From assembly GCA_001931535.1 (NCBI GenBank), contig CP016211.1, forward strand, positions 4,247,573 to 4,311,572: a DNA stretch of 64,000 nucleotides, given 5' to 3'. Shown here piece after piece: positions 4,542-19,642 of the stretch. The notes below the pieces were generated by a model. That model did not search any database. It had not been told where the DNA came from and saw nothing but the letters and a program-made list of their open reading frames with translations. Every line of letters starts with the position of its first letter. Position 1 is the first letter of the stretch. Source of the DNA: Minicystis rosea. Its GTDB lineage: Bacteria > Myxococcota_A > Polyangia > Polyangiales > Polyangiaceae. The position numbers and the translations under genes were made by a program.

Positions 4542-4634
4542 CGACGAGGGCGACGGCGCGCGGCGTCTTTCCTCTGCACGACGCCTGAGGACATGCGCTA
4601 GCGTATCGCCGCTCTTCACCGCCGAGGTGCCCGC

Positions 4635-6371
4635 GTGTCGCTTCACCATCGCTTCTTCGCGCCGACCGATGTCGTGTCCGATTTGCAGTGGGCCAAAGCT
4701 CGTTTGCTCGATCCGAGCGCGCCCGACGACGAGCGATCCCACGGCCGCGTGCACGACCTCGAGCTGATGCGGCGCTGGTCGGGGAGCGGGCGGCGGCCTG
4801 CTCGCGGCGGCCTCTTCTGTCAGGTGATCTTCGGGCCCATCGAGCCGCTCTCGTGCGCCTGCGGCGCGCTCCGCGGTCGAGCGCACGACGGCGAGACATG
4901 CGCAGAGTGCAGTGTCCTCTGCACCACGGCCGCGCTGCGGAGCCGGCGTCACGGCCACATCGAGGTGCGGGGCGTTCTTCATCCAGCGCTCGTCCCGCGC
5001 ATCGCCGAGACCCTGCGTTTGCCGCCCGGTCAGGTGTGGTCGATCGCGCGCGCCGAAGCATGGTTGGGAAGCGACGGCGTGCATGTCGTCGCGGATGGAG
5101 ATGATCCTCCGGACGGCGCCGCCACCGGCCCCGAAGCTCTGCGCGACGCGCTGCTCCGCGCGGGCGCCGATGCGCTGGCGGAGGTCGCAGTCCTCCAAGC
5201 CATCCCCGTGCCGCCGCCGAGCCTCCGGCCGTTCACCGGCGCGCTCAGCAAGGCCATGATCGATCCTTGGATTGGCCCGCTCAACGAGGCTTGGAGGGGG
5301 CTATTGATCGAGGCTGGCCAGCAGCAGAGGCTCGCCGAAATCGCGCCGCCGATGTTCGTGCACGACGCCCAACGCAAAGTGCAGGAGCTGTTCGCCACCG
5401 TCGTCCGCATGACGGTCTCACCGCCACCGCCGGCGCCCCCATGGCCCGCGTCCCGCGCTCCCGCGACGCCGCTCCCGCTGCAGCCGACGCCGGAGAACAT
5501 TCCAGAGGGTCTCTCGACGGACATCGTCTCGGTGCTCTTCGTCGACGAAGATCGCTTGTTCATCCAGCGCCCCCGCGGGTCGTGGCTCGTCACCACCAAG
5601 GGTGAAACCCTGGCCCAGTTTCCAACCTGTGGCCGAATCGCCACCAGCGTCCACGGATCGCGGATCCGCATGTCCTCGTGGATTGGGCAAGAGTGGGATT
5701 GGCTCCCCGACGGCGCGGAGCCCGACGTGCCGCAGACGAGCCTCGCCGTGCTCGATCTCGATACGGGACGATATCTCACCGACTACCCAACCGATCTCCC
5801 CCAACGCATCCTCGAAAACCATCAACCCGAGGATCTCGTGGCGGGGAGCGCGGGCGGTGAAGACGAGAGCATCCCGCTCCGGTGGGGTGGTGATCGGCCC
5901 GGTGTTTTGGCCGCAACCCGCGATGGATGCTTTGCCTGGGTCGGCGAGGGAGACGACGTCGCGGTCCTCGATCTCGACACCGGAGCGCCGGTTTTGGATC
6001 CGGTGATGCAAGGCTACTTCACGGAGGATGATCCGGTGTTGTCGCTCTCGTCCGACGAGGAGGCGGTGCGCAGCGACGGCGACGGCCACGAGACGGCCAC
6101 CGCCTTGGGAATCACGCCCGACAATGGGCTTCGCCTGCTTCACGACACAGGTGTGGTCAGCGACGGCGAGCGCCTGTGGTTCCGCATCGATGCCATGATC
6201 CTCGCGGCGGGCTTCAGCCCGAGCGCCGATGGCCTCGCGGTGGCCGTGGGGGACGAGATCGTGCTGCTCTCGGTGGCCGCCGATCCCGCAGTGCGCGGTC
6301 GCTTCCCTGCGCCCGGGCGCGAGGATGCGGGAGAAGGTTCACCGTCGGAAGATGATTCCAACGATGATTGA
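4635..6371 (+). CDS. Protein with an N-terminal domain homologous to the RNA polymerase beta-prime (RpoC) N-terminal Zn-binding/zipper region, fused to a PQQ/WD-like beta-propeller-like C-terminal region.
   Basis: GGLFCQVIFGPIEPLSCACGALRGRAHDGETCAECSV...RRHGHIEVRGVLHPALVPRIAETL aligns with E. coli beta-prime [38 protein letters not shown]...[29 protein letters not shown]. All four Zn Cys are kept. The C-terminal part has repeated VLDLDTG blocks and normal amino-acid composition. GTG start with no obvious SD. Confidence 0.6.
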   Translation: MSLHHRFFAPTDVVSDLQWAKARLLDPSAPDDERSHGRVHDLELMRRWSGSGRRPARGGLFCQVIFGPIEPLSCACGALRGRAHDGETCAECSVLCTTAALRSRRHGHIEVRGVLHPALVPRIAETLRLPPGQVWSIARAEAWLGSDGVHVVADGDDPPDGAATGPEALRDALLRAGADALAEVAVLQAIPVPPPSLRPFTGALSKAMIDPWIGPLNEAWRGLLIEAGQQQRLAEIAPPMFVHDAQRKVQELFATVVRMTVSPPPPAPPWPASRAPATPLPLQPTPENIPEGLSTDIVSVLFVDEDRLFIQRPRGSWLVTTKGETLAQFPTCGRIATSVHGSRIRMSSWIGQEWDWLPDGAEPDVPQTSLAVLDLDTGRYLTDYPTDLPQRILENHQPEDLVAGSAGGEDESIPLRWGGDRPGVLAATRDGCFAWVGEGDDVAVLDLDTGAPVLDPVMQGYFTEDDPVLSLSSDEEAVRSDGDGHETATALGITPDNGLRLLHDTGVVSDGERLWFRIDAMILAAGFSPSADGLAVAVGDEIVLLSVAADPAVRGRFPAPGREDAGEGSPSEDDSNDD

Positions 6372-6496
6372 CGGACTCGCCCGCCATCGCCGGCGCGCGG
6401 GCGCGCGTACGGACCGAGCGCACGCTGTGGACGATCGTGGATCGATGGCGCGCGGTCCGTGATATCGTCGCCGCCGCCATTCGAGGAGGCGCCCCG

Positions 6497-7081
6497 GTGA
6501 TTCGACGCATTGGTGCAGTGGCGATTGCGACCCTGTACATGGCCGTGAGCTGTGCACGTGGAACCGAGCTGGGGCCGGGCGGCGGCGGCGCGGGAGGCGC
6601 AGGCGGAAGCACGACGAGCTCGTGGTCGACGGGGTCGACGAGCTCGTCGAGCTCCAGCACCAGCGCGGTCTCGAGCTCGTCGAGCTCCAGCAGCTCGTCG
6701 AGCTCCAGCAGCTCGTCTTCCTCGAGCTCCAGCTCCTCCAGCTCGAGCAGCGGTACCGTCGACGCCGGCTCCCCCACTGGATTCGGCCCCTGCGTCACCG
6801 CAGCGGAGGTCGCGGCGCAAAGCACTCAGCTGTTGCAAGTCGGGTTCTGCTTCAACCCGTTTGCGTGCTTCCTCTGCGCTGACGATGCGGTGAATCCAGG
6901 CGACATCGTGTGCAGCCCCGCCTGTGTCTGCGCGGCGCTCCCGCCTTTCTGCGAGAGCGACGCGGGCACCGACGCGCCCGATGACGCTCCCGCCGACGCG
7001 CCCGATGATGCTCCGGTCGATGCCCCCGACGACGCATCGATCACCCTCGATGCCGGCGCCCCGGACGACGCCGGCCCGTGA
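6497..7081 (+). CDS. Secreted lipoprotein with a poly-Ser linker, a Cys-rich domain and a DAPDDAP-repeat tail.
   Basis: A GGAGG Shine-Dalgarno sits 6 nt before GTG 6497. The signal and lipobox read IRRIGAVAIATLYMAVSC. A 40-residue poly-Ser is encoded by a tandem agctcgtcgagctccagc DNA repeat (6640-6770). Eight Cys occur in about 60 aa. The longer track ORF starting at 6368 has no signal-peptide logic. Confidence 0.5.
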   Translation: MIRRIGAVAIATLYMAVSCARGTELGPGGGGAGGAGGSTTSSWSTGSTSSSSSSTSAVSSSSSSSSSSSSSSSSSSSSSSSSSSSGTVDAGSPTGFGPCVTAAEVAAQSTQLLQVGFCFNPFACFLCADDAVNPGDIVCSPACVCAALPPFCESDAGTDAPDDAPADAPDDAPVDAPDDASITLDAGAPDDAGP

Positions 7082-8157: not shown

Positions 8158-10068
8158 ATGATCGTCCCTCAGCCCGGTGTCGTCATCGCGGGGAGGTACA
8201 CGCTCGTACGCCCTCTCGCGCGCGGCGGCATGGGCTCGGTCTGGATCGCGCACCACCGCGATCTCGAGGTCGACGTCACCGTGAAGTTCATGGCGCCGTC
8301 GCTCGTCGCGTCGCCCGATGCGCGCCTCCGCTTCGAGCGCGAGGCCAAAGGAGCGGCGCGGATCCGCAGCCAGCACGTGGTCCAAGTCCACGACTACGGC
8401 GTCGAGGACGAGACCCCTTACATCGTGATGGAGCTGCTCAAAGGCGAGAGCCTGTGGACGCGGCTCGCGCGGGAAGGTCGGCTCCCGCTCCCCGTCACGG
8501 CGCGCCTGCTCGTCCAAATCTGCAAGGCCCTGCGCACCGCACACGAGGCAGGCCTCGTGCATCGCGATCTCAAGCCCGGCAACATCTTCCTCGCGCTCAA
8601 GGACGACGACGAGGTGGTGACGGTCCTCGATTTCGGGATCGCCAAGACCTCGGGCATCGGCGACGCCACCGCCGACACCGACTCCGGGGTTCTGCTCGGC
8701 TCCGTGCACTACATGAGCCCGGAGCAGATCCGCAATTCACGCAAGGTCGATCTGCGCAGCGATCTCTGGGCCATCGGCGTCATCCTGTATCGCACGCTCG
8801 CCGGCCGCCTGCCCTTCCCCGGCGAGAACGTAGGCGACGTGCTCGTGCGCGTGTGCACCGATCCATGGCCCGCTCCGTCGACGATCTGCTCCGATCTCCC
8901 ATCACGGGTCGACGCGTTCTTCGAGCGCGCGCTGGCGCGTGATCCCGAGCGACGCTTCCAGTCCGCGCCGGAGATGGCCGAGGCCTTCAGCGCCATGGCG
9001 CTCGAAGCGGACGCCCCCGCATCGTCGGCCGCGCCCGCGCCGCCCTTCGTGGCCACGCCACCGGCCGCGCCCGCGCCGCCGGCATCGCAGCCACCGCCCT
9101 GGAGCCAGGTGGCACCGGCGAGCGCGCCCGCGCCTCGAGAAGCGGGCACGATGCGCATGAGCTCCGCCACCGCCGCGCAAGCAGCGCCGGCCTTCGCCCC
9201 GCAACGCGCAGCCTCGTCGCCCTCGATCGCACCGGCGGAGCCCATCGTGCCAGCGACGGCGCCCGCTCCGCCCACCTTCGCGCCGCCCACGCCGAGCGCC
9301 GGAGGGCGTTCGCTCCACGGCACCCTCATTCCCGCGCGCAGCGCCGTGGCCCAGCCCGCTCCGAGCCCCTTCGCGCAGGCCGCCCCGCCCCAACCCGCGC
9401 AACCGACTCAAAGCACCTTCGCGCCAAGCACGCTCGCGCAGGCCTCTCGAGACACTTTCTCGCCATCCACGCCGGCGCCGCAAAGCAACCTCGCTCGAAG
9501 CTCCTTCGACGAGCTGCCTCAAAGCACCTTCGGGCAAAGCACGCTCGCGCCGGCGCCGCAAAGCACCTTCGCGCCGCCCCCGCAGAGCACCCCGGCGCTG
9601 TCGATGCCAATCCCCAGCGCCCGCCCCGGCTCGAGCCCGATGCTCGCGCCGCCGAGCGAGCGGCCATCTCGCGTTCCTGCATCGGAGACGCTCCCCAAGC
9701 GCTCGTCCTCGCGCACCGTCGGCCTGGCGCTGGCGGCGACGGCGATCCTCGGTGTCCTCGGCGCCGCCATCCATTTCTCGGGCACATCACGCAGCGCCGC
9801 CACCGCGAGCACCGCTCCGCCGCCGGCCGCCACCCCGGCGCCGCCATCCGCCACCGCCGCGCCGCCGGCCGCCACCCTCGCACCAACGGCGAGCGCCACG
9901 TCCGAAGCCGAGCGCGCCACGCCTCCCACACCGAGCGCCACAGCGCTCTCCTCGGCGCCGGAGCCGCGCGCGCCCGAGCCCCCCAAGCGAGCCCCCACCG
10001 CGCCTACCGGTGCGCCGGCCAAGCCACCGTCGAAGCCGCGCAACAACCTCTTGGATCGCGCCGACTGA
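8158..10068 (+). CDS. Ser/Thr protein kinase (Hanks-type) with a Pro/Ala-rich linker, one TM helix and a Pro/Ala/Thr-rich C-terminal tail.
   Basis: The glycine loop reads LARGGMGSVW. The VAIK-like site reads VTVKFM. The catalytic loop reads HRDLKPGNIF, followed by DFGIAK and SPEQ. Imperfect QSTFAPSTLA repeats follow, then the TM segment VGLALAATAILGVLGAAIHF. Confidence 0.85.
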   Translation: MIVPQPGVVIAGRYTLVRPLARGGMGSVWIAHHRDLEVDVTVKFMAPSLVASPDARLRFEREAKGAARIRSQHVVQVHDYGVEDETPYIVMELLKGESLWTRLAREGRLPLPVTARLLVQICKALRTAHEAGLVHRDLKPGNIFLALKDDDEVVTVLDFGIAKTSGIGDATADTDSGVLLGSVHYMSPEQIRNSRKVDLRSDLWAIGVILYRTLAGRLPFPGENVGDVLVRVCTDPWPAPSTICSDLPSRVDAFFERALARDPERRFQSAPEMAEAFSAMALEADAPASSAAPAPPFVATPPAAPAPPASQPPPWSQVAPASAPAPREAGTMRMSSATAAQAAPAFAPQRAASSPSIAPAEPIVPATAPAPPTFAPPTPSAGGRSLHGTLIPARSAVAQPAPSPFAQAAPPQPAQPTQSTFAPSTLAQASRDTFSPSTPAPQSNLARSSFDELPQSTFGQSTLAPAPQSTFAPPPQSTPALSMPIPSARPGSSPMLAPPSERPSRVPASETLPKRSSSRTVGLALAATAILGVLGAAIHFSGTSRSAATASTAPPPAATPAPPSATAAPPAATLAPTASATSEAERATPPTPSATALSSAPEPRAPEPPKRAPTAPTGAPAKPPSKPRNNLLDRAD

Positions 10069-11021: not shown

Positions 11022-12386
11022 ATGAACCGAGCAAGCTGGAAGAGCTTCGGTCTCCTGATCCTTCCCACAGCCTGGGCCGGGTGCATCGCGCTCGAATGGG
11101 ACTACCGGGAAACATCTTCGTCCTCATCGTCCTCGTCTTCGTCGTCCTCGTCTTCGAGCGGCACCCCCAACGAATGCACCGGCGCCCCCGACGAAGTCGC
11201 ATGCGGCGTGGTCGGGCGCGTCTGTCGCAACGAGCAATGCGTCTGCGCGCAGGACGAGTGTGGCGGCCAATGCGTCGATCGGAACACGGATCCGAGCCAT
11301 TGCGGCAGTTGCGCCAACGCCTGCGGCAAGGGCATGACCTGTGTCGCGGGTGAATGCCAGTGCGGCCTCGGCCAATCGAAGTGCGACGGCAAGTGCGTGA
11401 GCACGGACAGCGACCCCGATCATTGCGGCGCCTGCAACCACGGTTGCCAGGGTGGAAAATGCGCGAGCTCGAAATGCGAGCCGCTCGTGCTCGCCAACGG
11501 GCAGACCGCGCCGGCCGGCATCGCCGTCGATGGTCAAAACGTCTATTGGACCAACTTCGGCAGTGGAACGGTGATGGCGATTCCCGTCGGTGGCAACGAC
11601 AACATGCCCACCACCTTGGCCGCGCCCGCGCCCGACGCCGGGCCTGCCGGCATCGCGGTCCAAGGCAATACGGTGTTCTGGGTGAACTACACCGCAGGCA
11701 CGGTGATGAGCGTACCCACCGGCGGCGGCCTATCCACCCCCCTCGCCACTGGGCAGAACAAGCCTTCCAGCATCGCCGTCGACGGCACCTACGTGTATTG
11801 GACCAACTATGGTGACGGCACCGTCATGAAGGTGCCCACGAAGAACGCCTCGGCCCCCGTCCCCCTCGCTTCGGGGCAGAGCTTTCCGCCGAAGCTCATC
11901 GATTCCGTGACGAGCGCCGTGCAGGGCCTCGCCGTCGACGGCACCCACGTCTATTGGACCAACTACGGTGACGGCAGCATCCGCAAAGTGGCCCTCGAGG
12001 GCGGCTCGGTGACGGCGATCGCCGAGAAGCAGAACAACCCTCAATGCCTCGCCGTGAACGGCACCAACGTCTATTGGACCAACCGGATCAGTGACTCGGA
12101 CGGCGCCGTCATGAAGGTCGCCACGAGCGGCGGTGAGCCCATCGTCCTCGCCGCCGGGCAGAGCGGCCCTTATGGCATCGCTTCGCAGGACCTGGCCGGC
12201 GTCTTCTGGACGAACAACAACCTCACCTTCGACAGCGGCACGGTGGCATCCGCGCCCCTCGCCGGCGGCGTCCACGTCTTCGTCGCCTCGGCACAAGCCC
12301 TCCCGACCGCCGTCGCCGTCGACGGCACCAGCGTTTACTGGCTGAATCACAACTTCGGCGGCTTCATCATGAAGGTCGCGAGATAG
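11022..12386 (+). CDS. Lipoprotein with a poly-Ser linker, a Cys-rich module and a six-bladed YWTD-type beta-propeller.
   Basis: The lipobox reads LLILPTAWAGC. Sixteen Ser are encoded by a tcgtcctcgtcttcg repeat. About 22 Cys follow in CxxC/CGxC patterns. Repeated blades read VYWTNFG, VFWVNYT, VYWTNYG (twice), VYWTNRI and VFWTNNN. The start is 1 nt after the previous stop. Confidence 0.75.
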   Translation: MNRASWKSFGLLILPTAWAGCIALEWDYRETSSSSSSSSSSSSSSSGTPNECTGAPDEVACGVVGRVCRNEQCVCAQDECGGQCVDRNTDPSHCGSCANACGKGMTCVAGECQCGLGQSKCDGKCVSTDSDPDHCGACNHGCQGGKCASSKCEPLVLANGQTAPAGIAVDGQNVYWTNFGSGTVMAIPVGGNDNMPTTLAAPAPDAGPAGIAVQGNTVFWVNYTAGTVMSVPTGGGLSTPLATGQNKPSSIAVDGTYVYWTNYGDGTVMKVPTKNASAPVPLASGQSFPPKLIDSVTSAVQGLAVDGTHVYWTNYGDGSIRKVALEGGSVTAIAEKQNNPQCLAVNGTNVYWTNRISDSDGAVMKVATSGGEPIVLAAGQSGPYGIASQDLAGVFWTNNNLTFDSGTVASAPLAGGVHVFVASAQALPTAVAVDGTSVYWLNHNFGGFIMKVAR

Positions 12387-12387
12387 C

Positions 12388-14199
12388 ATGCACGTCGTCT
12401 CCGCCTCTCCGCTCCGCGTCGCCTCGATCGTCTTTCAGCCGCGCAGAGGTGCCTTTGCGCTCACCGTCGTGTGCAAAGCCACCTTCCAGCTCGAGCCCGA
12501 CGTCTGCCGCCTCGCCGTCGCGCAGGAGGATCCGATCCAGGACGACATTCTCGGTGAGAGCGGCCTGCGCGCGCCGAGCGATCTCGTGCCCATGAAACCG
12601 CGCGCGGACGTCATCCTCGTGGGTCACGCCTTCGCTCCGGGAGGGCAGCCTGCGCGCACGGTGCGCGCGAGGCTCGTCGTGGGCGAGATCGACAAGTCCA
12701 TCGACGTCTTTTGCGATCGCATCTTTTGGCAGGACGGCCGGTTGCTCGAAGGACAGCCCTTCACCCAAATGCCAATCTCCTACGGGCGCGCCGCGTTCGG
12801 CCCGGAAAACCCGGCCGGCGTGCGCTTCGACGCGCCGCCCGACGCGAGCGGTGCGGTGCGGATTCCCAACCTGCAGCCCCAAGGCAGCCACATCGCCCGT
12901 CGCGGAGATACGTTTGCGCCCGTCGGATTCGGCCCCATCGCGCCGAGCTGGCCGGGCCGCGTGGAGAAGCTTCGACAGCACGCGGGCACGTGGTCGTTGC
13001 GGAGCCTCCGCGAATGGCCGCTCCCCGCCGAAATCGATCCTTCGTTCTTCAACGTCGCGCCGCGCGATCAACAGATGGAGGCAATTCAGCCCGACGAGCG
13101 GATCATCCTCGAAAACCTGTCCCCCGCTGCACCTCGCCTGGAGACGTGCCTGCCCGGCATTCAGCCCATCGCGCGCATGACGGCCGGCGGCCGGGCCGGC
13201 GAAGGGATGGCGCTCGTCGCCGACACGCTCACCATCGACACCGATCGATCCATCGTCACCGTGGTGTGGCGCGGGCGCGTGCCGCTCAACCACCCTGACG
13301 AATCCGGGCAGTTGGTGGTGACGATGGAAGGCGGCGACCTCCCCGGCGGCACAGCCATCCTCGGCGGCGAGGCCCACCCCGGCACCGTGCAGCTCGGCCC
13401 GGGCGGCGTCGCTCCTCCGATGCGAACGCCGTTTGCGGCCCCTTCGGGTGAAATCGAAACGCTCCTCGGCGGCAGCGGTGGTGGCCCAGCATTGCCGTTC
13501 ACCGCCGCCGGCAGCCCGTGGGTGGGTTTTCGCCCCAAGCCCCCTCCACCCAAGGACGCACCGCTGTCCGAGGGCACCGGCACGGTCTACGGCGTCAAGG
13601 GAAAGGCCAGAGACGTGCTGCCTTTCCCGGACGCCGCGCCCCGCGTCCCTCCGAGCGCGGCATTCGCACCGATGATCGATGTCGTGACGCCCGAGCCGCC
13701 CGCCCCGGAGGTGCGTGAGCCCGAGGCCCCGGAAACGCCTCCCCCACCCGAGCCGGAGCCGACGCCCAAAGCCGACATCGACATCTCGATCGAGCTTTGC
13801 GCGGCAATCCAAGCCTCCATCGACCGAAGCGGCGGGCAGAAGAAAGAGGTCTTGGAGAAACACGCTCTCTCCGACGACGTCTGGTCGGCCGCCGCCCAAC
13901 GCTGGGAAGCCGACATCGACACGGATGTCGAGCAGGGCAAAACCGATCTGCTCCAACGCTACGACGCGGCCTACATCGCGCAGATCGAAGAGGAGCGCGG
14001 GCCGATTCGACCCGAGGATTACGCGCGCCTCTCCGTCGCGGCGGAGCGCGGCACCACCGACGCCGTCCTCACCGAGCTCTCGATCCCCGAAGAGGCCGAG
14101 ATGCGCCTCGAGCGCGTTTGGCTCGACAAGGTGCTGCGCAGCCCGGCGCTCGCCAAACAGGTGCGCGAAGCGCGGGCCAAGGCCAGCGCCGAGGCCTGA
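12388..14199 (+). CDS. DUF2169 domain protein (T6SS-associated family) with an acidic/Pro-rich C-terminal half.
   Basis: The N-terminal core reads VASIVFQPRRGAFALTVVCKATFQLEPDV...DVILVGHAF...PVGFGPIAPSWPGR...FFNVAPRDQQ. It shares the (V/A)KATF / KGTF signature with the genes at 14204 and 45932. The ATG is 1 nt after the upstream stop. Confidence 0.75.
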   Translation: MHVVSASPLRVASIVFQPRRGAFALTVVCKATFQLEPDVCRLAVAQEDPIQDDILGESGLRAPSDLVPMKPRADVILVGHAFAPGGQPARTVRARLVVGEIDKSIDVFCDRIFWQDGRLLEGQPFTQMPISYGRAAFGPENPAGVRFDAPPDASGAVRIPNLQPQGSHIARRGDTFAPVGFGPIAPSWPGRVEKLRQHAGTWSLRSLREWPLPAEIDPSFFNVAPRDQQMEAIQPDERIILENLSPAAPRLETCLPGIQPIARMTAGGRAGEGMALVADTLTIDTDRSIVTVVWRGRVPLNHPDESGQLVVTMEGGDLPGGTAILGGEAHPGTVQLGPGGVAPPMRTPFAAPSGEIETLLGGSGGGPALPFTAAGSPWVGFRPKPPPPKDAPLSEGTGTVYGVKGKARDVLPFPDAAPRVPPSAAFAPMIDVVTPEPPAPEVREPEAPETPPPPEPEPTPKADIDISIELCAAIQASIDRSGGQKKEVLEKHALSDDVWSAAAQRWEADIDTDVEQGKTDLLQRYDAAYIAQIEEERGPIRPEDYARLSVAAERGTTDAVLTELSIPEEAEMRLERVWLDKVLRSPALAKQVREARAKASAEA

Positions 14200-14203
14200 T
14201 GTC

Positions 14204-15322
14204 ATGCCCACGAAGCGTGCTCCCGCGATCCCCGATCCGCGCCTGCAAACGATCAAGAACCTGACGCCGTTCGCCCTGTTCCAATGCGACAAGATGGGTG
14301 TCGGCCGCCGCTTTTACGATACGGTGACCGTCAAAGGCACCTTCGATTTGAAGCCGGGCTGCATGGAGCTCGCCCGCGAGCAGGCTCCAGTCCTGCTCGC
14401 GGACGATTATTGGGATCTGGAAACGCCCGAGCGCTCGAGCGTGAAGCGCGCCGGCGACGCGGTGCTCATCAAGCCCAGCACCGATGTCATCCTCACAGGC
14501 AGCGTGCATACGCCCGCAGGGAAGGCGCTCCGCGAATGGGACGCTGCCGTCCTCATCGAAGGACGCCGCGGCAAGGTCATCGACTACAGCGTTCAGGTCA
14601 CCGGACCACGCGTGTGGCGATACACCAGCACCCGCGGCTTCTCGCTCACGGATCCCGAGCCCACGGAGGAGGTTCCGATCCGTTACGAGCTTGCCTATGG
14701 CGGCGCCTACCTCGACCCGCGAAATGCTTCTCCCGAGGGCGATCCCAAGTGGATCGTCCACGAGCCCAACCCGAGCGGCACGGGCTTCTGTGACGAGCGC
14801 GCGCTGAGCCCAAACGAGCCCTACCGCGCACCACAATGGCAATCTCGCCTCGCGCCCGTGACGTCGCTCAACCACGATGTGCCCGTGTGCGGATTCGGCC
14901 CCATCTCCCGGCCCTGGAGCTCGCGCCTCCGCTACCAAGGCACCTGCGACGACGCTTGGGAGCAGGAGAACCGCGAGGCCGTCGCCAAAGGCCTTCCCGC
15001 CGACTATCCGGCCGACTTCGACGCTCGTTATTTCCAATGCGCGCATCCCTCCTTGATTGCCCCCGAGCACCTCGCGGGCGACGAGCACCTGGCCCTGGGT
15101 GGGATCGTCGCCGGTGAGGCTCGGTTCGTCACAGAGCTCCCTGGCATCGCCGTCGCGGCGCGCCTCCTCGACGGCTCCGGCGCATGGCACGACGAGCGGA
15201 TGCCGCTCGACACGGTGCACATCGATTTGGATGCAGGCGCCGTCCACCTGTGCTTTCGTCTCACCCTCGATCAAGCGCGCGACATCCTGGCGGCGGTGAT
15301 TTACACGACGGAGGCAACATGA
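14204..15322 (+). CDS. DUF2169 domain protein (second paralog).
   Basis: TPFALFQCDKMGVGRRFYDTVTVKGTFDLKPG...DVILTGSVHTP...VCGFGPISRPWSSR...YFQCAHPSL...LDTVHIDLDAG. The track ORF 13715..15322 begins inside the upstream gene. The ATG at 14204 follows the upstream stop by 4 nt. Confidence 0.75.
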   Translation: MPTKRAPAIPDPRLQTIKNLTPFALFQCDKMGVGRRFYDTVTVKGTFDLKPGCMELAREQAPVLLADDYWDLETPERSSVKRAGDAVLIKPSTDVILTGSVHTPAGKALREWDAAVLIEGRRGKVIDYSVQVTGPRVWRYTSTRGFSLTDPEPTEEVPIRYELAYGGAYLDPRNASPEGDPKWIVHEPNPSGTGFCDERALSPNEPYRAPQWQSRLAPVTSLNHDVPVCGFGPISRPWSSRLRYQGTCDDAWEQENREAVAKGLPADYPADFDARYFQCAHPSLIAPEHLAGDEHLALGGIVAGEARFVTELPGIAVAARLLDGSGAWHDERMPLDTVHIDLDAGAVHLCFRLTLDQARDILAAVIYTTEAT

Positions 15323-15669
15323 GCGAATCGCGACACATCGCCGATGCCGAAGCCGAGTTCCAAGTCGTCAACGTCACCCCCGACTTCTGCAAAGTGAACG
15401 GCAAGCGGGTGGCGTTCGACATCTTTCGGGATCTGACACCGCAGCGCGTGAACTATGCGAAGAAGGTCAGAGCGCGCGGCGTCCCCGTGCTGACGGTGGA
15501 CAGCGTCGTCGCCGGCGTGGTGGGGAACATGGGAGAGGGTGTGTTCTCGGGCGTGTCGAAGAGCTCGGGAGACGTGATCGTCGTTCAAGGCGTGGAGAAC
15601 GTCCGGGCCGAGCGCCGCTACGTGTGCCGAGATCAGGACATCTGTCTCATGAACGTGAAGGTGGGGTGA
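15319..15669 (+). CDS. PAAR-like protein (DUF4150 family) of 116 aa.
   Basis: GGAGG sits 5 nt before the ATG. The ATGA overlaps the previous stop. TPDFCKVNGKRVAF and GEGVFSGVSKSSGDVIVVQGVENV...NV resemble the DUF4150 (PAAR-like) PDVCKTP...GDEAG...GGV.S pattern. Confidence 0.6.
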   Translation: MSESRHIADAEAEFQVVNVTPDFCKVNGKRVAFDIFRDLTPQRVNYAKKVRARGVPVLTVDSVVAGVVGNMGEGVFSGVSKSSGDVIVVQGVENVRAERRYVCRDQDICLMNVKVG

Positions 15670-16634
15670 TGGCCGGCGCCCCCGACGACACCCTCGGTGG
15701 CTTGCTCCCACCGAGCTTCTCGAGCACCTTCCTGGCCAATGGCACCTTTGGGCGGATACGCACCGCGACCTGCCTCAAAGACGAGACCTACGAGCAGGGG
15801 CGAGCGCGTGAAGCGCTGGAGATCGCCGAGGAGCGATATCGCGCCGGCGGCCTCACCGGCCAGCAATCGCTACAACTTCGCGAGGAGATCGATCGCCTCT
15901 CCAAGATCGCTCGCCCCGGAATGGCCAACGCGTGGCCGCCGCTGAACGAAGCGGAGGTGCAAGCCATCGCGGACCAGCGGCGCGCCCTCAACACCGTAGG
16001 CATCTTTGCGGCCGGTCCGGTGATGGGCGCGCTCCCCGCGGCCGCGCGCATCGCCGGCGCCCCCGAGCCGGTGGTGGAAGCAGCAGCCCAGATCAACTTC
16101 GATCTGGCCACCTCCGGTGCCCTACACGGGCTCCCCAAAGGCACCGCCGAGCCGATCCCGATGGCGCGCACGATCACGGGCACGTACATCGAGCCGCACG
16201 TCGGAAAGCGCATCATCAAGATCAACGTCGATGCGTTCGCAGAGGGGCGCAACTTCCGCGACACCAACCAGGAGGCCCGCTCGCCCGAGGCCCGCGATCC
16301 CAACCGGGAGACGCCCATCGCCGAGCGCGTCAAGGCCAAGGAGGAGGCTTATTTCCTGAAGAAAGGCGAAGAAAGAGCGTTTCCCAACGGCAACATGGCG
16401 ACCGCACACGCCGAGATCGGCGCGCTCCAGCAGATCAACGAGGCCGGCCTCGCCAAAGGCAACGACATCCTCATCATCGTCTCGGGGGAGCGCGACGTGT
16501 GCTCTTTCTGCGTAGGCGACATCGCCGCCATGGGGCGCGAGATCGGCGCGCGCTCCATCACGGTCATCGACGTCTATCAAGGCAAGACCTTCTTCTGGAC
16601 AGAGGGCATGAGATCCATCGGAGATCCCCACTGA
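15669..16634 (+). CDS. Predicted T6SS-delivered polymorphic toxin. The N-terminal region is of unknown function. The C-terminal domain is a nucleic-acid/nucleotide deaminase (CDA fold).
   Basis: The start overlaps the PAAR-like stop (TGATG). Near the C-terminus the sequence reads NMATAHAEIGALQQINEAGLAKGNDILIIVSGERDVCSFCVGD. This places HAE 28 residues before CxxC, the zinc-deaminase signature (HAE at 16407-16415, CSFC at 16500-16511). Gene context: DUF2169, DUF2169, PAAR-like, toxin, then a small downstream ORF. Confidence 0.6.
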   Translation: MAGAPDDTLGGLLPPSFSSTFLANGTFGRIRTATCLKDETYEQGRAREALEIAEERYRAGGLTGQQSLQLREEIDRLSKIARPGMANAWPPLNEAEVQAIADQRRALNTVGIFAAGPVMGALPAAARIAGAPEPVVEAAAQINFDLATSGALHGLPKGTAEPIPMARTITGTYIEPHVGKRIIKINVDAFAEGRNFRDTNQEARSPEARDPNRETPIAERVKAKEEAYFLKKGEERAFPNGNMATAHAEIGALQQINEAGLAKGNDILIIVSGERDVCSFCVGDIAAMGREIGARSITVIDVYQGKTFFWTEGMRSIGDPH

Positions 16635-16647
16635 CAGGAGCATCCGC

Positions 16648-17061
16648 ATGAGCACCATGAGACTGTCGTGGGGTTTCGATCCCGGACCCAAAGCACGCGC
16701 CGAGCACCTGGCAGCGCCCACGTGGGCCGATGTCGAGGACAAGCTCGCTCGGCTCGCCGCCGCCCATACGGGCTCCATCAAGCTCGAGCTCCAACCGGCC
16801 CCCACGCTGGGCCCGCAGAGCCTCCAAGCCATCGCGGAGAATGGCACCTACCTCGTCATGCTGGGCGAGATGATCGAAGTCGACGGCGACGTCGATCACA
16901 ACGTGCGCACGCTCTACGATGCTTCCGCTACGCCGGGAAAGACGCTGATCATGGGCGATTTCTGGGACGCGCGCCAAACGTCGCGGGAGCCGGCCGTCGT
17001 GCGCGACGTCTTCAAAGACTTCTTCGAGACGGGCGACGTCTCCGCAGACAAGCTCTCTTGA
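16648..17061 (+). CDS. Putative cognate immunity protein (137 aa, cytoplasmic, acidic).
   Basis: It sits 13 nt downstream of the deaminase gene on the same strand and is of immunity-protein size. It contains LIMGDFWD with a conserved-looking Trp. The assignment is by position only. Confidence 0.45.
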   Translation: MSTMRLSWGFDPGPKARAEHLAAPTWADVEDKLARLAAAHTGSIKLELQPAPTLGPQSLQAIAENGTYLVMLGEMIEVDGDVDHNVRTLYDASATPGKTLIMGDFWDARQTSREPAVVRDVFKDFFETGDVSADKLS

Positions 17062-17171
17062 TGACGGGTTGTGCGGATGGCGCGCGGCGCGTTGCCCAGC
17101 GAAGGTGGCGAGTCGAGCGCGCGCACGATTGACCGAGAGAGCGGTGCACGGCCGCTCTCTCGGTCACATCT

Positions 17172-19490
17172 TCAGTTGAGGTCGATCGGATCGCCGATGA
17201 CCTGAACCTTGCCGCCTTGGAGCAGGGCGTCGGCTTCGGCCTTCACGGAGACCGCCTTCCCATCCACCTTCACCGAGTCCTTGCCCTTGACGATGATCTC
17301 GGTGCCTTCGAGCGTGATCTTCCCCGAGCTCTCCATCACGATCTTGGCCTTACCGCACTTGATCTCGATCTTCTTCCCGGCTTTGACGCTCTTCACGAGC
17401 CCGACCATCTCGTTGCTCATGAGGCCGACGGTCGTGCTCATGGCGCCGCCGACGGTCACCGAGTACATGCCGCCGACGGTCAGCGATTTGGCGAGGCCTA
17501 CCTTTTCGCTCGAGGCCTTTCCAACCGACTCGCTCTTCTGACCGCCGATCTTCACGCGCTGGCTCTTGCCGACCTTGACGCTCTCGTTCACGCCGACGAC
17601 GCGCGTGCGGCTCTTCCCCACCGTCTCGCGCTCGCTCCCCTTCACCTGCTTCACGCGGTCTTTGCCGATGGAGATCTCTTCGTCGTTCGCCACCACCTTT
17701 TGGCGATCGTGACCGATGACGACGGACTCGTCGTTCTTCACGAGCTTCTTCCGGTCGTGCTCGATGGTGATGGCCTCGTCGTTCTGGACGAGCTTCTGCC
17801 GATCGTGCGCGATGACGATGGTCTCGTCGTGGTTCACGATCCGCGTGCGATCGTGCTCGATCGTGATCTTCTCGTCGTGCTCGACCTTCTCCGTCCGGTC
17901 GTGGCCGATGGTGATGGTCTCGTCGTGCTTCACGAGCTTGTCGAGATCCTTCTCGGCTTGGATGTAGATCTGCTCGCGCCCCTTCGCGTCCTCCAAACGG
18001 ATCTCGTTGAAGCCGCCGCCGCCCGGGGAGGATTGGGTCTTCCACCCGCTCTGCGTCTTGTTGGCCGGCAAGGCGTAAGGCACGCGCTGCGTGGCCGTGT
18101 AGACACGGCCGGTGATCACGGGCCGATCCGGATCGCCGCCGAGGAAGTCGACGAGGACCTCCTGTCCGATGCGCGGCACGTTGATCATGCCGAAGCCGCC
18201 CCCGCTCCACGGGTGGCTCACGTGGATCCAACAAGAGCTGTTGTCATCCATCCGGCTCTCGCGATCCCAGTGGAAGTGCACGCGCACGCGCCCGAGCTCG
18301 TCGGTGTGGATCTCTTCGCCGGCGGGGCCGACCACCGTGGCGCTCTCCACACCGGAGATCTTCGGCCGCGGCGTCACGAGCGGCGGGCGGAAGGGCTGAT
18401 CCGTGCGGCGCGCCTCGCAACGATGGGTCCAGGCGCCGTCGTGCGTCCCGCGATGCGACGACTCGACCACGAGCACGGGCTTGCCTTTGCCGAGCTCGGC
18501 GCGCGGATGATCGAGGATGTCGAGCACCACCCCGGGGGCGAGATCGATGGCGTTGGTGTCGAACGAGCACACGCGCGCGCCGGCCCGCTTCGCTTCGAGG
18601 CGCTTCTTCGCGACGGACGCGCCCTCGCGCTCGTCGGTGCGCGTGCGGCCCTTGTCGTCGCCGAAGGGCGCGTCCCCCGCGGGCTCGGCGCCGAAGCTGA
18701 ACGCGCCGGGCACGTAGTGGAACCGCTCGAGCTTCGACTCCAGCCCGGCCTCCGGCGCGGAGGCCGCGGCGAGAAGCGCGTAGCCCGCGGGCAGGCGCGG
18801 GTCGTGATCGCGCACCGTGTAGCGGCCCGGGCGCACGCGTTGCCCGACGCGCACCTCGGTGACGTACTCGCGCGCGACGGCGCGGGTGGGTTTGTCTTCG
18901 AAGTGGAGGGACGGCCGAGCCTCGCCGGATTGCGGCGCGTCCGAGAGCACGAGGCGCGTCTCGGAGTCGCCCTGCTCGAAGAAGAACGAGATGCCCGCCT
19001 CCTCCAGCATCCGCGAGACGAAGGCGAAATCGGACTCGGCATATTGCACGCGATACTCGCGCTTCTTGTAGGTGCCCGAGATGCGGAGCTCGGGATCGAC
19101 GCCCCATTCCCGCAGAATCTTGCGCGCGATGTCGAGCTCGGAGAGCTGCTGGAACATGCGGTGATTGCGCCGCTGCGTGCTGAGCCAGAGGGCTGGGACG
19201 ATGTGAAGCTGATACGTCGAGAGGCCGGCCTCGGAGACCGCGACCTGCTGGATGTCCTTGCAGATCCCCGTCCAGAACCGGGTCGAGGAGAGCGCCGCCG
19301 TGCCGCCGTGCATGAGGAAGCTCGCCGGCCGGCCCACCACCGCATCGAAGTCGATGTTGGCCTGATCGGAGACCGCGACGATGACGATCTCGAAGAGCGC
19401 CGACATGCGCTCCTCCACCGCGAAGCTCCGGACGTCGAGCGCGTCACCGGAGTCGACGCGGACCACGAGGTTGCGCAGAGCGGCTGTCAT
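17172..19490 (-). CDS. vgrG: VgrG, the type VI secretion spike protein (Phage_GPD plus gp5-like C-terminal beta-helix repeats).
   Basis: The N-terminus MTAALRNLVVRVDSGDALDVRSFAVEERMSALFEIVIVAVSD is typical of VgrG. Also present are QLHIVPALWLSTQ..., the central GPD region and WIHVSHPWSGGGFGMINVPRIGQEV. A C-terminal array of 16-aa repeats (HDRTEKVEHDEKITIE, HDRTRIVNHDETIVIA, and so on) is encoded by DNA repeats at about 17600-17960. The start was chosen at the internal Met 19490 (the track start is 19607). Confidence 0.85.
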   Translation of the reverse strand: MTAALRNLVVRVDSGDALDVRSFAVEERMSALFEIVIVAVSDQANIDFDAVVGRPASFLMHGGTAALSSTRFWTGICKDIQQVAVSEAGLSTYQLHIVPALWLSTQRRNHRMFQQLSELDIARKILREWGVDPELRISGTYKKREYRVQYAESDFAFVSRMLEEAGISFFFEQGDSETRLVLSDAPQSGEARPSLHFEDKPTRAVAREYVTEVRVGQRVRPGRYTVRDHDPRLPAGYALLAAASAPEAGLESKLERFHYVPGAFSFGAEPAGDAPFGDDKGRTRTDEREGASVAKKRLEAKRAGARVCSFDTNAIDLAPGVVLDILDHPRAELGKGKPVLVVESSHRGTHDGAWTHRCEARRTDQPFRPPLVTPRPKISGVESATVVGPAGEEIHTDELGRVRVHFHWDRESRMDDNSSCWIHVSHPWSGGGFGMINVPRIGQEVLVDFLGGDPDRPVITGRVYTATQRVPYALPANKTQSGWKTQSSPGGGGFNEIRLEDAKGREQIYIQAEKDLDKLVKHDETITIGHDRTEKVEHDEKITIEHDRTRIVNHDETIVIAHDRQKLVQNDEAITIEHDRKKLVKNDESVVIGHDRQKVVANDEEISIGKDRVKQVKGSERETVGKSRTRVVGVNESVKVGKSQRVKIGGQKSESVGKASSEKVGLAKSLTVGGMYSVTVGGAMSTTVGLMSNEMVGLVKSVKAGKKIEIKCGKAKIVMESSGKITLEGTEIIVKGKDSVKVDGKAVSVKAEADALLQGGKVQVIGDPIDLN

Positions 19491-19642
19491 CTCCGCACCC
19501 CTGCTCGAGAACGAGGCAGCGTTCATCATTCCTCCCAAGGTGGGCCAAGCGACGAAGGGTGAAAGGGAGCTAACACGCTTCCCGGCGTCGCGAAAGCGCT
19601 GTCGCACGCGACGCCGTCACCCGCCCGTGATCACACTGCCTC

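What the first reader, a model, noticed from the sequence alone, without database searches (positions are those of the whole stretch)
4635..6371. Stand-alone paralog of the RNA polymerase beta-prime N-terminal zinc-binding/zipper region fused to a beta-propeller-like domain
Residues about 55-140 align convincingly with the N-terminus of RpoC, with all four Zn-ligand Cys conserved (4807-4915). The remainder is unrelated, with repeated VLDLDTG blocks. At roughly 40-45% identity the divergence argues against a recent pseudogene fragment of the housekeeping rpoC. In beta-prime, this region contacts upstream DNA/nascent RNA and sigma. A free copy could be an RNAP mimic, decoy or competitor, for example a regulator or an anti-phage or anti-sigma-like factor. 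I know of no described family with this fusion.
Basis: partly seen in the sequence, partly recalled or inferred. Interest (0 to 1): 0.7.

Follow-up and report, generated by a model that had tools for sequence, protein, structure and literature searches.

The report
Stand-alone RNA polymerase clamp paralog
This myxobacterial gene encodes a non-catalytic copy of the first ~300 residues of the RNA polymerase beta-prime subunit (zinc domain, lid and clamp helices, where sigma and NusG factors dock) joined to an acidic six-bladed propeller; it belongs to a large family of RNA-polymerase-fragment paralogs for which I found no description and whose function is untested.

Summary
ORF 4635-6371 (+), 578 aa, from Minicystis rosea, is a real gene under purifying selection, with full-length orthologs in Polyangium and Nannocystis.

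A profile search shows a wider superfamily. Class I is beta-prime-N plus propeller. Class II is beta-prime-N plus TIGR02996. Class III is beta flap plus beta C-terminus plus beta-prime N-terminus with a dead active site, sometimes with an alpha-CTD. Every named member I looked up is Myxococcota.

I found no conserved gene neighbours, no match to known defence-system models and no paper describing these proteins.

My best reading is a cytoplasmic clamp mimic that binds a factor normally docking on the clamp. The partner is unknown. The window's own subfamily has lost the three sigma70-contact residues that classes II and III keep.

The parts
4624..4627 (+). Shine-Dalgarno-like GAGG, 7 nt upstream of the GTG start
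   Evidence: Read directly from the sequence.
4635..6371 (+). Complete CDS of 578 aa plus stop. It encodes a beta-prime-N clamp paralog fused to a propeller.
4635..5429 (+). N-terminal beta-prime-like clamp-core domain, residues 1-265. Residues 28-265 align to E. coli beta-prime 25-315.
4806..4970 (+). Zipper and zinc-binding domain equivalent, residues 58-112, with Cys codons at 4854, 4860, 4899 and 4908. Its net charge is only +1, against +7 in E. coli.
5205..5279 (+). Lid-equivalent segment, residues 191-215: PVPPPSLRPF...DPWIGP. This holds the most conserved motif of the subfamily. It is 3 residues longer than the beta-prime lid.
   Evidence: Invariant columns P191, P193-195, R198, P199 and D210-P215. 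Aligned to beta-prime 243-264.
5274..5417 (+). Clamp-helices (coiled-coil) equivalent, residues 214-261, a helical hairpin. The tip motif R232-L233-x-E235...P238 is retained. The sigma70-contact positions R275, E295 and A302 are replaced by E226, A245 and L252.
   Evidence: DSSP helices 214-236 and 239-261 at pLDDT >93. Alignments.
5418..5528 (+). Pro-rich linker, residues 262-298. It is ordered in the high-confidence model.
5529..6308 (+). Six-bladed beta-propeller, residues 299-558. It is strongly acidic (net -29, pI 4.1). The VLDLDTG motif sits at nt 5748-5768 and 5964-5984. LRWGGDRP is invariant among the 17 close homologs.
6318..6368 (+). Disordered acidic C-terminal tail, residues 562-578. 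It is not conserved.

Best explanation
Shown: the gene encodes a soluble cytoplasmic protein that cannot polymerise RNA. Its first 265 residues are a diverged copy of the RNA polymerase beta-prime clamp core (zipper/zinc-binding domain, lid, clamp helices). This copy is held in a fixed orientation on an acidic six-bladed propeller. It is one branch (class I) of a superfamily of RNA-polymerase-fragment paralogs. Every named member I looked up comes from Myxococcota.

Inferred: the protein works as a clamp mimic. It presents, outside the polymerase, the surface on which clamp-docking factors normally sit. Those factors are region 2 of sigma factors and the NGN domain of NusG-family proteins. By binding one such partner in trans it would sequester, hold or deliver it. 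The propeller would serve as a second binding or sensing platform, or as a structural substitute for the missing beta and beta-prime C-terminal clamp pieces.

The window's own subfamily has replaced the three classical sigma70-contact residues. Its partner is therefore probably not the housekeeping sigma bound in the canonical way. A co-evolved specialised partner is more likely.
For: Homology and fold:
- hhalign 99.5%, E 5.8e-23, family residues 28-265 against beta-prime 25-315.
- The lid plus clamp-helix profile alone hits beta-prime 239-315 at E 3e-11.
- Foldseek top 50 hits are all beta-prime or gamma chains.

No catalysis: the homology ends before the rudder and NADFDGD.

A functional gene:
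- Orthologs at 44-60% identity occur in several genera.
- dN/dS is 0.2-0.35 in both domains.
- The AF2 model has pLDDT 91.7 and pTM 0.90.

Cytoplasmic: no signal peptide or transmembrane segment.

Protein binding rather than nucleic-acid binding: the zinc-binding domain's positive charge falls from +6.0 in RpoC to +0.8 in class I, and the propeller has pI about 4.1-4.5 in all 17 close homologs.

Superfamily logic:
- The sister classes are also non-catalytic, yet they keep factor-docking surfaces at RpoC-like levels. In class III R275 and E295 are 100% conserved, and several members sampled (P0123, P0102, P0104, P0108, P0127, P0154) keep an intact beta flap-tip helix EEKLLRA[IL]FG. In class II both residues are 87% conserved.
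- These are the residues and the helix needed for sigma binding (PMC8321222, which also cites Young et al. 2001 for the isolated beta-prime coiled-coil acting on sigma70).
- The clamp-helix tip (R281, L282, D/E284, P288, hydrophobic 290/291) and Q300 stay above 80-94% conserved in class I.
- The C-terminal modules vary between classes (propeller, TIGR02996 plus about 290 aa, alpha-CTD). This is the pattern of a constant binding module joined to variable sensor or adaptor modules.

Genes are scattered and solitary in housekeeping-type neighbourhoods, as expected for a trans-acting factor.
Against: - No partner has been identified and no binding has been tested.
- In the window's subfamily the three positions whose mutation impairs sigma70 binding are changed: R275 to E226 (family consensus A), E295 to A245, A302 to L252.
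- No sigma, anti-sigma or NusG gene is a conserved neighbour. An ECF sigma lies 1.4 kb downstream in only 1 of 11 loci examined.
- The conserved tip residues could be purely structural.
- I could not see the coordinates of the model. I therefore do not know whether the propeller leaves the clamp-helix face free or covers it.
- Class assignments and the NJ tree are rough.
- Most superfamily members come from unnamed metagenome contigs.
Confidence: 0.42

Rival explanations
1. Exapted scaffold. The beta-prime fragment has lost all connection with transcription. It serves only as a folded platform for a propeller-mediated protein-protein or small-molecule function.
For: The sigma70-contact residues are lost in this subfamily. 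The most conserved motifs are family-specific and have no beta-prime counterpart: DPWIGP, LRWGGDRP, QPEDL. No transcription gene is a conserved neighbour. Some class I members lack the ZBD segment altogether.
Against: All four Zn Cys, the PxPPxxRP lid motif, the clamp-helix tip and Q300 remain conserved over deep divergence. The sister classes retain intact sigma-docking elements, so the ancestral role of the module was probably factor binding.
Confidence: 0.25
2. Decoy or guard against agents that attack the RNAP clamp, such as phage-encoded RNAP-binding proteins or interbacterial toxins. The free clamp copy would soak up the inhibitor or sense it.
For: A free copy of a common target surface is the logic of a decoy. 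The variable repeat-type C-terminal modules resemble sensor domains. The family is diverse and evolves moderately fast. Myxobacteria are rich in conflict systems, and a T6SS effector island lies 6-13 kb downstream in this window.
Against: No PADLOC hit for the protein, its neighbours or the sister classes. No effector domain in the protein. No conserved neighbours and no defence-island context in 11 loci. The T6SS island is not conserved next to the orthologs.
Confidence: 0.12
3. RNAP-binding accessory or assembly competitor. The fragment docks on the C-terminal clamp part of beta, the natural partner of the beta-prime N-terminus. It would do so in free beta or alpha2-beta intermediates and so modulate core assembly.
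For: In class III the beta C-terminal clamp piece (E. coli 1241-1339) is fused in cis to the beta-prime N-terminus. This shows that the two pieces belong together. Class I lacks that piece.
Against: pTM 0.90 indicates a self-contained two-domain fold that needs no extra subunit. The N-terminal 25 residues are helical and family-specific, not the beta-pairing strand of beta-prime. In assembled core the site is already occupied by beta-prime.
Confidence: 0.1
4. Nucleic-acid-binding protein that uses the zinc-binding domain, zipper and lid as they are used in the RNA exit channel and at upstream DNA.
For: These elements contact RNA and DNA within RNAP (established knowledge of bacterial RNAP structure). 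Several top propeller matches are RNA-binding NHL domains such as Brat and TRIM71.
Against: The ZBD net charge falls to +1 in the window protein and +0.8 as the class I mean, against +6 in RpoC. The propeller is strongly acidic. The NHL matches score no better than lectin, Kelch or WD40 propellers at 6-15% identity.
Confidence: 0.06
5. Pseudogene fragment of rpoC, or an assembly chimera.
For: None beyond the partial similarity to rpoC.
Against: The reading frame is intact in at least 9 independent assemblies with the same architecture. dN/dS is below 0.4 in both domains. The model of the whole protein is confident.
Confidence: 0.01

Closest known systems
Bacterial RNA polymerase beta-prime subunit (RpoC), N-terminal clamp core, E. 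coli residues ~25-315
   Same: Homologous sequence and fold. The four-Cys zinc-binding domain, the PxPPxxRP lid motif and the clamp-helix hairpin with its conserved tip and Q300 are all present.
   Different: Only about 265 of about 1400 residues are present. There is no rudder, no NADFDGD/DPBB, no bridge helix and no trigger loop. The score is 48 bits against the rpoC equivalog cut-off of 963.5. The ZBD has lost its basic charge, and the sigma70-contact residues R275, E295 and A302 are replaced. A propeller is fused to it.
Engineered stand-alone archaeal RNAP clamp (PDB 3QQC, a fusion of B, A' and A'' pieces crystallised with Spt4/5)
   Different: It is artificial. It contains the B and A'' C-terminal clamp pieces that class I lacks and class III has. 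It has no propeller.
Isolated beta-prime coiled-coil and N-terminal fragments that bind sigma70 in vitro (Young et al. 2001, cited in PMC8321222)
   Same: The same segment of beta-prime, acting outside the polymerase as a sigma-region-2 ligand.
   Different: These are laboratory fragments of the housekeeping subunit with R275, E295 and A302 intact. The window protein has all three changed.
Naturally split beta-prime N-terminal subunits: cyanobacterial and plastid gamma (RpoC1), and the jumbo-phage AR9 non-virion RNAP beta-prime-N (7s00_d)
   Different: To my knowledge these are true catalytic subunits that assemble into a polymerase and, at least gamma, carry the NADFDGD region. This was not checked here. 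The window protein ends before that region.
Anti-sigma factors
   Same: The proposed logic is the same: a sigma-binding module joined to a sensor module, acting in trans by sequestration.
   Different: There is no anti-sigma domain fold and no ZAS motif. The gene is not co-transcribed with a sigma gene. Binding is untested. If the proposal is right, the protein would mimic the polymerase side of the interface, which would be a different principle.
Full-length rpoB paralogs of Nonomuraea and other actinomycetes (PMC5431353)
   Same: A bacterial paralog of an RNAP large subunit with a regulatory role.
   Different: Those are complete subunits that are reported to give a second form of RNA polymerase (PMC5431353 abstract). 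This protein is a truncated, non-catalytic fragment.

Membership tests
RpoC / beta-prime subunit (NCBIfam TIGR02386 equivalog) | Full-length match above the curated cut-off of 963.5 bits | tested here: not met
   48 bits, with the best-scoring stretch covering residues 54-112 (2 stretches in all).
RpoC / beta-prime subunit | Catalytic NADFDGD Mg-binding loop within the double-psi beta-barrel | tested here: not met
   Homology to beta-prime ends at E. coli residue ~315. What follows is a propeller.
RpoC / beta-prime subunit | N-terminal four-Cys zinc-binding domain | tested here: met
   C74, C76, C89 and C92 align to E. coli C70, C72, C85 and C88. They are invariant in 17 homologs and 91% conserved across class I.
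RpoC / beta-prime subunit | Lid plus clamp helices (coiled-coil) | tested here: met
   hhalign result. The segment-only profile gives E 3e-11. Helical hairpin at 214-261.
Pfam PF04997 RNA_pol_Rpb1_1 (clamp core domain) | Score above the gathering threshold of 39.7 bits | tested here: inconclusive
   The window protein scores 19.8 bits, E 5e-4. Seven of 17 close homologs carry a precomputed PF04997 hit. Profile and structure comparisons are decisive for homology.
Sigma-binding beta-prime coiled-coil | Residues R275, E295 and A302, which are needed for holoenzyme formation | tested here: not met
   The window protein has E226, A245 and L252. Across class I the positions are only 38%, 55% and 52% conserved. 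They are kept in class II (87%, 87%, 67%) and class III (100%, 100%, 65%). The role of these residues is taken from PMC8321222.
Anti-sigma factors | Genetic linkage to a cognate sigma factor gene | tested here: not met
   An ECF sigma lies nearby in 1 of 11 loci (L081) and in none of the others.
Anti-sigma factors | Direct binding and inhibition of a sigma factor | not testable with these tools
   Needs two-hybrid or pull-down experiments, or multimer structure prediction.
Six-bladed beta-propellers (NHL, fucose-lectin, YWTD and Kelch-like folds) | Six four-stranded blades, with a structural match to solved propellers | tested here: met
Known anti-phage defence systems (PADLOC-DB 2.0) | Match to a defence-system protein model, or a conserved defence-type operon | tested here: not met
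   No hits. No conserved neighbours.
Class II paralogs (beta-prime-N plus TIGR02996 repeat-companion domain) | TIGR02996 domain after the clamp-like domain | tested here: not met
   Absent from the window protein. Present in 7 of 10 class II proteins sampled.

The most novel reading that the evidence does not exclude
Myxococcota carry a graded series of catalytically dead RNA-polymerase surrogates. At one end are near-complete sigma-docking platforms: beta flap-tip helix, beta clamp piece, beta-prime N-terminal half and alpha-CTD. At the other end are minimal clamp modules on propellers or TIGR02996 repeats. These proteins would trap, store or deliver sigma and NusG-family factors by imitating the polymerase itself, and in the alpha-CTD forms might occupy promoters. 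That would be a regulatory principle not described for bacteria. The window protein would be the most derived member, with a switched partner.
Probability: 0.3. Interest if true: 0.85.

Novelty: new variant of a known kind. Interest (0 to 1): 0.66.

Why it matters
The beta-prime clamp helices and zinc-binding domain are the central docking hub of bacterial transcription. Sigma factors, NusG and RfaH bind there, and phage regulators and the coupled ribosome are also thought to. A naturally evolved, free-standing, non-catalytic copy of this hub would be a ready-made probe for who binds the clamp. If it sequesters factors, it would also be a new class of transcription regulator that mimics the polymerase rather than the promoter or the sigma factor.

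At least 112 sequence clusters score at E <= 1e-30 in the profile search. The sister classes are catalytically dead, yet several members sampled keep the flap-tip helix, the sigma-contact residues and in some cases an alpha-CTD. This makes the question directly testable in organisms with very large sigma and regulator repertoires.

There is also an annotation error to correct. The M. rosea protein is labelled 'DNA-directed RNA polymerase beta' subunit protein', which it is not.

Tried and rejected
1. Conserved gene neighbourhood. I compared the window with 10 other loci (L001-L004, L081-L084, L087, L088) using tblastn, all-against-all blastp and precomputed Pfam labels. Nothing is shared across genera. 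Synteny exists only within Polyangium (PGA_cap, a ~410-aa gene, the target, a ~240-aa gene, a ~230-aa gene). Ser/Thr kinases lie nearby in 4 loci, and I judge this to be chance in kinase-rich myxobacterial genomes.
2. The genome-contig scan was swamped by genuine rpoC, because the pattern GIFCQxIFGP also fits rpoC. Only 4 true family loci came back.
3. The metagenome-contig scan with a query lacking the ZBD returned one 2.5-kb contig.
4. The search for homologous proteins with a diverse alignment returned only the close family. A search with distant member P0023 gave 4 hits.
5. The afdb50 fold library was not available.
6. Literature. Six full-text searches on paralogs and one for TIGR02996 found nothing on these proteins. 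Iyer & Aravind 2012 (PMC3769190), the paper most likely to mention them, is not held. Prior description therefore cannot be excluded.
7. PADLOC gave no hits. PHROGs gave only RpoC- and RpoB-like families.
8. The promoter and terminator scan was uninformative.
9. I could not check that the genuine rpoC of M. rosea is intact.
10. The first AF2 model, built from 17 close sequences, was mediocre (pLDDT 74.7, pTM 0.54). It was superseded by the 36-sequence model.
11. Model coordinates and PAE are not returned by the tool, so the inter-domain interface could not be mapped.
Full report
**1. What is at the coordinates**

The ORF 4635..6371 (+) encodes 578 aa from a GTG start. A GAGG lies 7 nt upstream of the start. 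GC by codon position is 0.73/0.52/0.79, the pattern of a real gene in this ~69% GC window.

The identical protein is on record from Minicystis rosea, a 16-Mb myxobacterium, under the name 'DNA-directed RNA polymerase beta' subunit protein'. Sixteen further cluster representatives cover 97% of the query (86% for the most distant, P0017). They come from Nannocystis, Polyangium and metagenomes and are 31-60% identical.

Nine orthologous genes for which I hold DNA have intact frames and the same start, MSL(R/H)DRFF. Pairwise dN/dS is 0.2-0.35 in both halves for unsaturated pairs. The locus is therefore not a pseudogene and not an assembly chimera.

**2. The beta-prime similarity is real and larger than reported**

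phmmer against PDB sequences aligns residues 52-112 to the beta-prime zipper and zinc-binding region. Whole-sequence E-values run from 8e-13 to 2e-10 for about 60 distinct chains. A second, weaker stretch (residues 182-258) aligns to the beta-prime lid and clamp helices. NCBIfam rpoC models hit at about 1e-13, but with 48 bits against a cut-off of 963.5. Pfam Rpb1_1 is sub-threshold at 19.8 against 39.7 bits.

Profile methods settle the matter:
- hhalign of the 17-sequence family against E. coli beta-prime 1-473 gives 99.5% probability and E 5.8e-23. It aligns 231 columns, family residues 28-265 against beta-prime 25-315.
- A profile that lacks the zinc domain entirely (residue 186 to the end) still hits beta-prime 239-315 at E 3e-11 to 1e-8. 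This excludes the 'generic zinc ribbon' refutation.
- tblastn of real rpoC genes from many phyla matched query residues 54-251 at 24-28% identity.

The four Zn ligands are C74, C76, C89 and C92 (nt 4854, 4860, 4899, 4908). Identity to E. coli over residues 52-112 is 25/61 = 41%.

**3. Structure**

With 17 close sequences AlphaFold2 gave a mediocre model (pLDDT 74.7, pTM 0.54). With 36 diverse family members it gave mean pLDDT 91.7 and pTM 0.90. That indicates a confident fold with a fixed arrangement of the two domains.

Foldseek against the PDB returns only beta-prime or gamma chains in the top 50. E is about 1e-14 over ~280 columns at 22-24% identity. TMq is 0.32 normalised to 578 residues, which I estimate at roughly 0.7 over the N-domain alone.

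- Plastid gamma, and Pol I and Pol II largest subunits.
- The split beta-prime-N subunit of phage AR9.

Residues 214-236 and 239-261 form the helical hairpin that corresponds to the clamp helices. Homology ends at E. coli residue ~315, before the rudder and far before NADFDGD. The protein therefore cannot be a polymerase.

The propeller is strongly acidic in every close homolog (net -22 to -34, pI 4.1-4.5). There is no signal peptide or transmembrane segment.

**4. It is one branch of a large, unannotated superfamily**

A profile of the family was searched against 1.84 billion representative proteins. It gave 3887 hits at E <= 1e-3 and 112 at E <= 1e-30. I classified the top 150 with separate N-domain and propeller HMMs and with Pfam and NCBIfam.

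- Class I: beta-prime-N plus propeller, the window's type, 430-690 aa. At least ~60 clusters at 50% identity. Some lack the ZBD segment or the middle segment but keep the lid, clamp helices and propeller.
- Class II: beta-prime-N plus TIGR02996 'repeat-companion' domain plus ~290 further residues. Seven of 10 sampled have the domain. P0073 comes from a Myxococcales MAG.
- Class III: 740-960 aa, with a beta part followed by a beta-prime part.
  - The beta part consists of the flap (in P0123, flap-tip helix EEKLLRAIFG intact) and the beta C-terminal clamp piece, E. coli 1241-1339.
  - The beta-prime part runs from residue 1 to about 490, and the catalytic loop is destroyed. For example, P0123 reads 'LAPGGVAVVHVPAT' where RpoC has NADFDGDQMAVHVPLT.
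  - P0101, P0123 and P0092 also carry a C-terminal alpha-CTD.
  - The P0123 cluster comes from Polyangiaceae and Sandaracinus MAGs, on contigs up to 348 kb.

A rough NJ tree places classes I, II and the dead class III in separate groups away from genuine RpoC. The topology and the root should not be over-read. All family loci I fetched have 59-72% GC, and every named source is Myxococcota.

**5. Clues to function**

(a) Genomic context. No neighbour is conserved across genera in 11 loci. There is no PADLOC hit and no effector domain. This fits a solitary trans-acting factor and argues against a multi-gene defence system.

(b) Charge. The ZBD's net charge falls stepwise: RpoC +6.0, class III +4.7, class II +3.0, class I +0.8, and +1 in the window protein. 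Together with the acidic propeller, this argues against nucleic-acid binding and for protein binding.

(c) Docking residues. R275, E295 and A302 of the beta-prime coiled-coil are needed for holoenzyme formation, and the beta flap-tip helix binds sigma region 4 (PMC8321222). Conservation across classes is as follows:
- The non-catalytic classes II and III keep R275 and E295 at 87-100%, and A302 at 65-67%. Class III members also keep the flap-tip helix. Exposed residues in a protein with no polymerase role should drift unless the docking function is retained.
- Across class I these positions are only about half conserved (38%, 55%, 52%).
- In the window's own subfamily they are replaced by E226, A245 and L252.
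- The hairpin tip (R281, L282, D/E284, P288, hydrophobic 290/291) and Q300 stay above 80-94% conserved in class I.

(d) A free clamp can bind its factor. This is shown by the engineered archaeal clamp with Spt4/5 (3qqc) and, from the literature, by beta-prime coiled-coil fragments acting on sigma70 (Young et al. 2001, cited).

**6. Interpretation**

Shown: the protein is a conserved, cytoplasmic, non-catalytic paralog of the beta-prime clamp core, held in a fixed arrangement with an acidic six-bladed propeller. It is a member of a paralog superfamily whose named members are all Myxococcota.

Inferred (confidence about 0.4): it acts as a clamp mimic that binds a clamp-docking partner in trans. 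For this subfamily the partner is probably not the housekeeping sigma in canonical mode.

Rivals, in descending order:
- An exapted scaffold with no link to transcription (0.25).
- A decoy for agents that target RNAP (0.12).
- A binder of beta or of assembly intermediates (0.10).
- A nucleic-acid binder (0.06).
- A pseudogene or chimera (about 0.01).

**7. Comparison with what is known, and novelty**

The protein is not an RpoC ortholog: it fails the equivalog score and lacks the catalytic motif. It matches no defence-system model. Its only similarity to anti-sigma factors is the proposed logic.

I found no Pfam or NCBIfam family for the architecture. No paper in the searchable library describes stand-alone beta-prime-N paralogs. 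The one review most likely to mention them could not be read.

I rate it a new variant of a known kind: a new architecture built on a known domain, with an untested but plausible new regulatory principle. Interest is about 0.66. The existence of natural free clamps, and especially of the dead flap-clamp-alpha-CTD 'pseudo-polymerases', would surprise transcription specialists and is directly testable.

Noticed in passing
Proteins P0123, P0101, P0093, P0102, P0104, P0107, P0127 and others (not in the window): Class III 'pseudo-polymerases' of 740-960 aa. They combine the beta flap (flap-tip helix EEKLLRA[IL]FG intact in several, e.g. P0123, P0102, P0104), the beta C-terminal clamp piece and beta-prime residues 1 to about 490, with the catalytic NADFDGD lost. 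P0101, P0123 and P0092 add an alpha-CTD by Pfam or NCBIfam (P0092 has no beta part); P0127 only shows an alpha-CTD-like motif by my regex. R275 and E295 are 100% conserved. The P0123 cluster is from Polyangiaceae and Sandaracinus MAGs.
   Followed up: partly
Proteins P0073, P0075, P0081, P0087, P0088, P0103, P0105 (not in the window): Class II paralogs: a beta-prime-N clamp-like domain followed by a TIGR02996 'repeat-companion' domain and ~290 uncharacterised residues. NCBI names P0073 only as 'TIGR02996 domain-containing protein'.
   Followed up: partly
Proteins P0146 (1141 aa), P0166 (1200 aa), P0136 (1348 aa): Near-full-length RpoC-like proteins with a degenerate catalytic loop: 'NADLDGGE', 'RIHFAGER' and 'DVNFDGD' in place of NADFDGD. 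They may be full-length dead RpoC paralogs. Their taxonomy is unknown.
   Followed up: no
window 11022-19607: A T6SS effector island. It holds a STIG1-like/propeller protein (11022-12386), DUF2169 (12388-14199), a Deam_C deaminase toxin (15624-16634), DUF6911 as a likely immunity protein (16648-17061), and VgrG on the minus strand (17172-19607). It is not conserved next to the orthologs.
   Followed up: partly
window 6368-7081 (+): An ORF that overlaps the target's stop codon by 4 nt. It has a long poly-Ser run, DAPDDAP repeats, Cys-rich stretches and an internal lipoprotein-like signal (…ATLYMAVSC). There is no Pfam or PADLOC hit and no homolog next to the orthologs. The true start is probably internal, near 6500.
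   Followed up: partly
window 8158-10068 (+): A Ser/Thr protein kinase with a very long Pro/Ala-rich tail. Kinases also lie within a few kb of the orthologs in L002, L003 and L084, the last together with a SpoIIE/PP2C phosphatase. I judge this to be chance but did not test it statistically.
   Followed up: partly
L001 9700-10360 (Nannocystis radixulma): About 400 bp downstream of the ortholog lies a ~180-bp duplicate of its own 3' end (…AAAFSPAAERLAIAADDEIVIIAVSNPPAILGRFAAPNDG). An MbtH-like ORF sits on the opposite strand. This looks like an insertion with a target-end duplication.
   Followed up: partly
L085 6001-7568 (JGI metagenome contig): The family gene is split here into a 295-aa N-domain ORF (P0020) and an adjacent 224-aa propeller ORF. 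This is probably a frameshift or sequencing error rather than a distinct architecture.
   Followed up: partly
Class I proteins P0028, P0034, P0036, P0039, P0041, P0038, P0043, P0051, P0057: Some class I members lack a recognisable ZBD segment (N-domain HMM positions 35-105) or the middle segment, but keep the lid, clamp helices and propeller. This suggests that lid, clamp helices and propeller are the conserved functional core.
   Followed up: no
window 4635-6371; NCBI record of Minicystis rosea: The public annotation 'DNA-directed RNA polymerase beta' subunit protein' (UniRef: 'DNA-directed RNA polymerase') is misleading. The protein lacks every catalytic element.
   Followed up: yes
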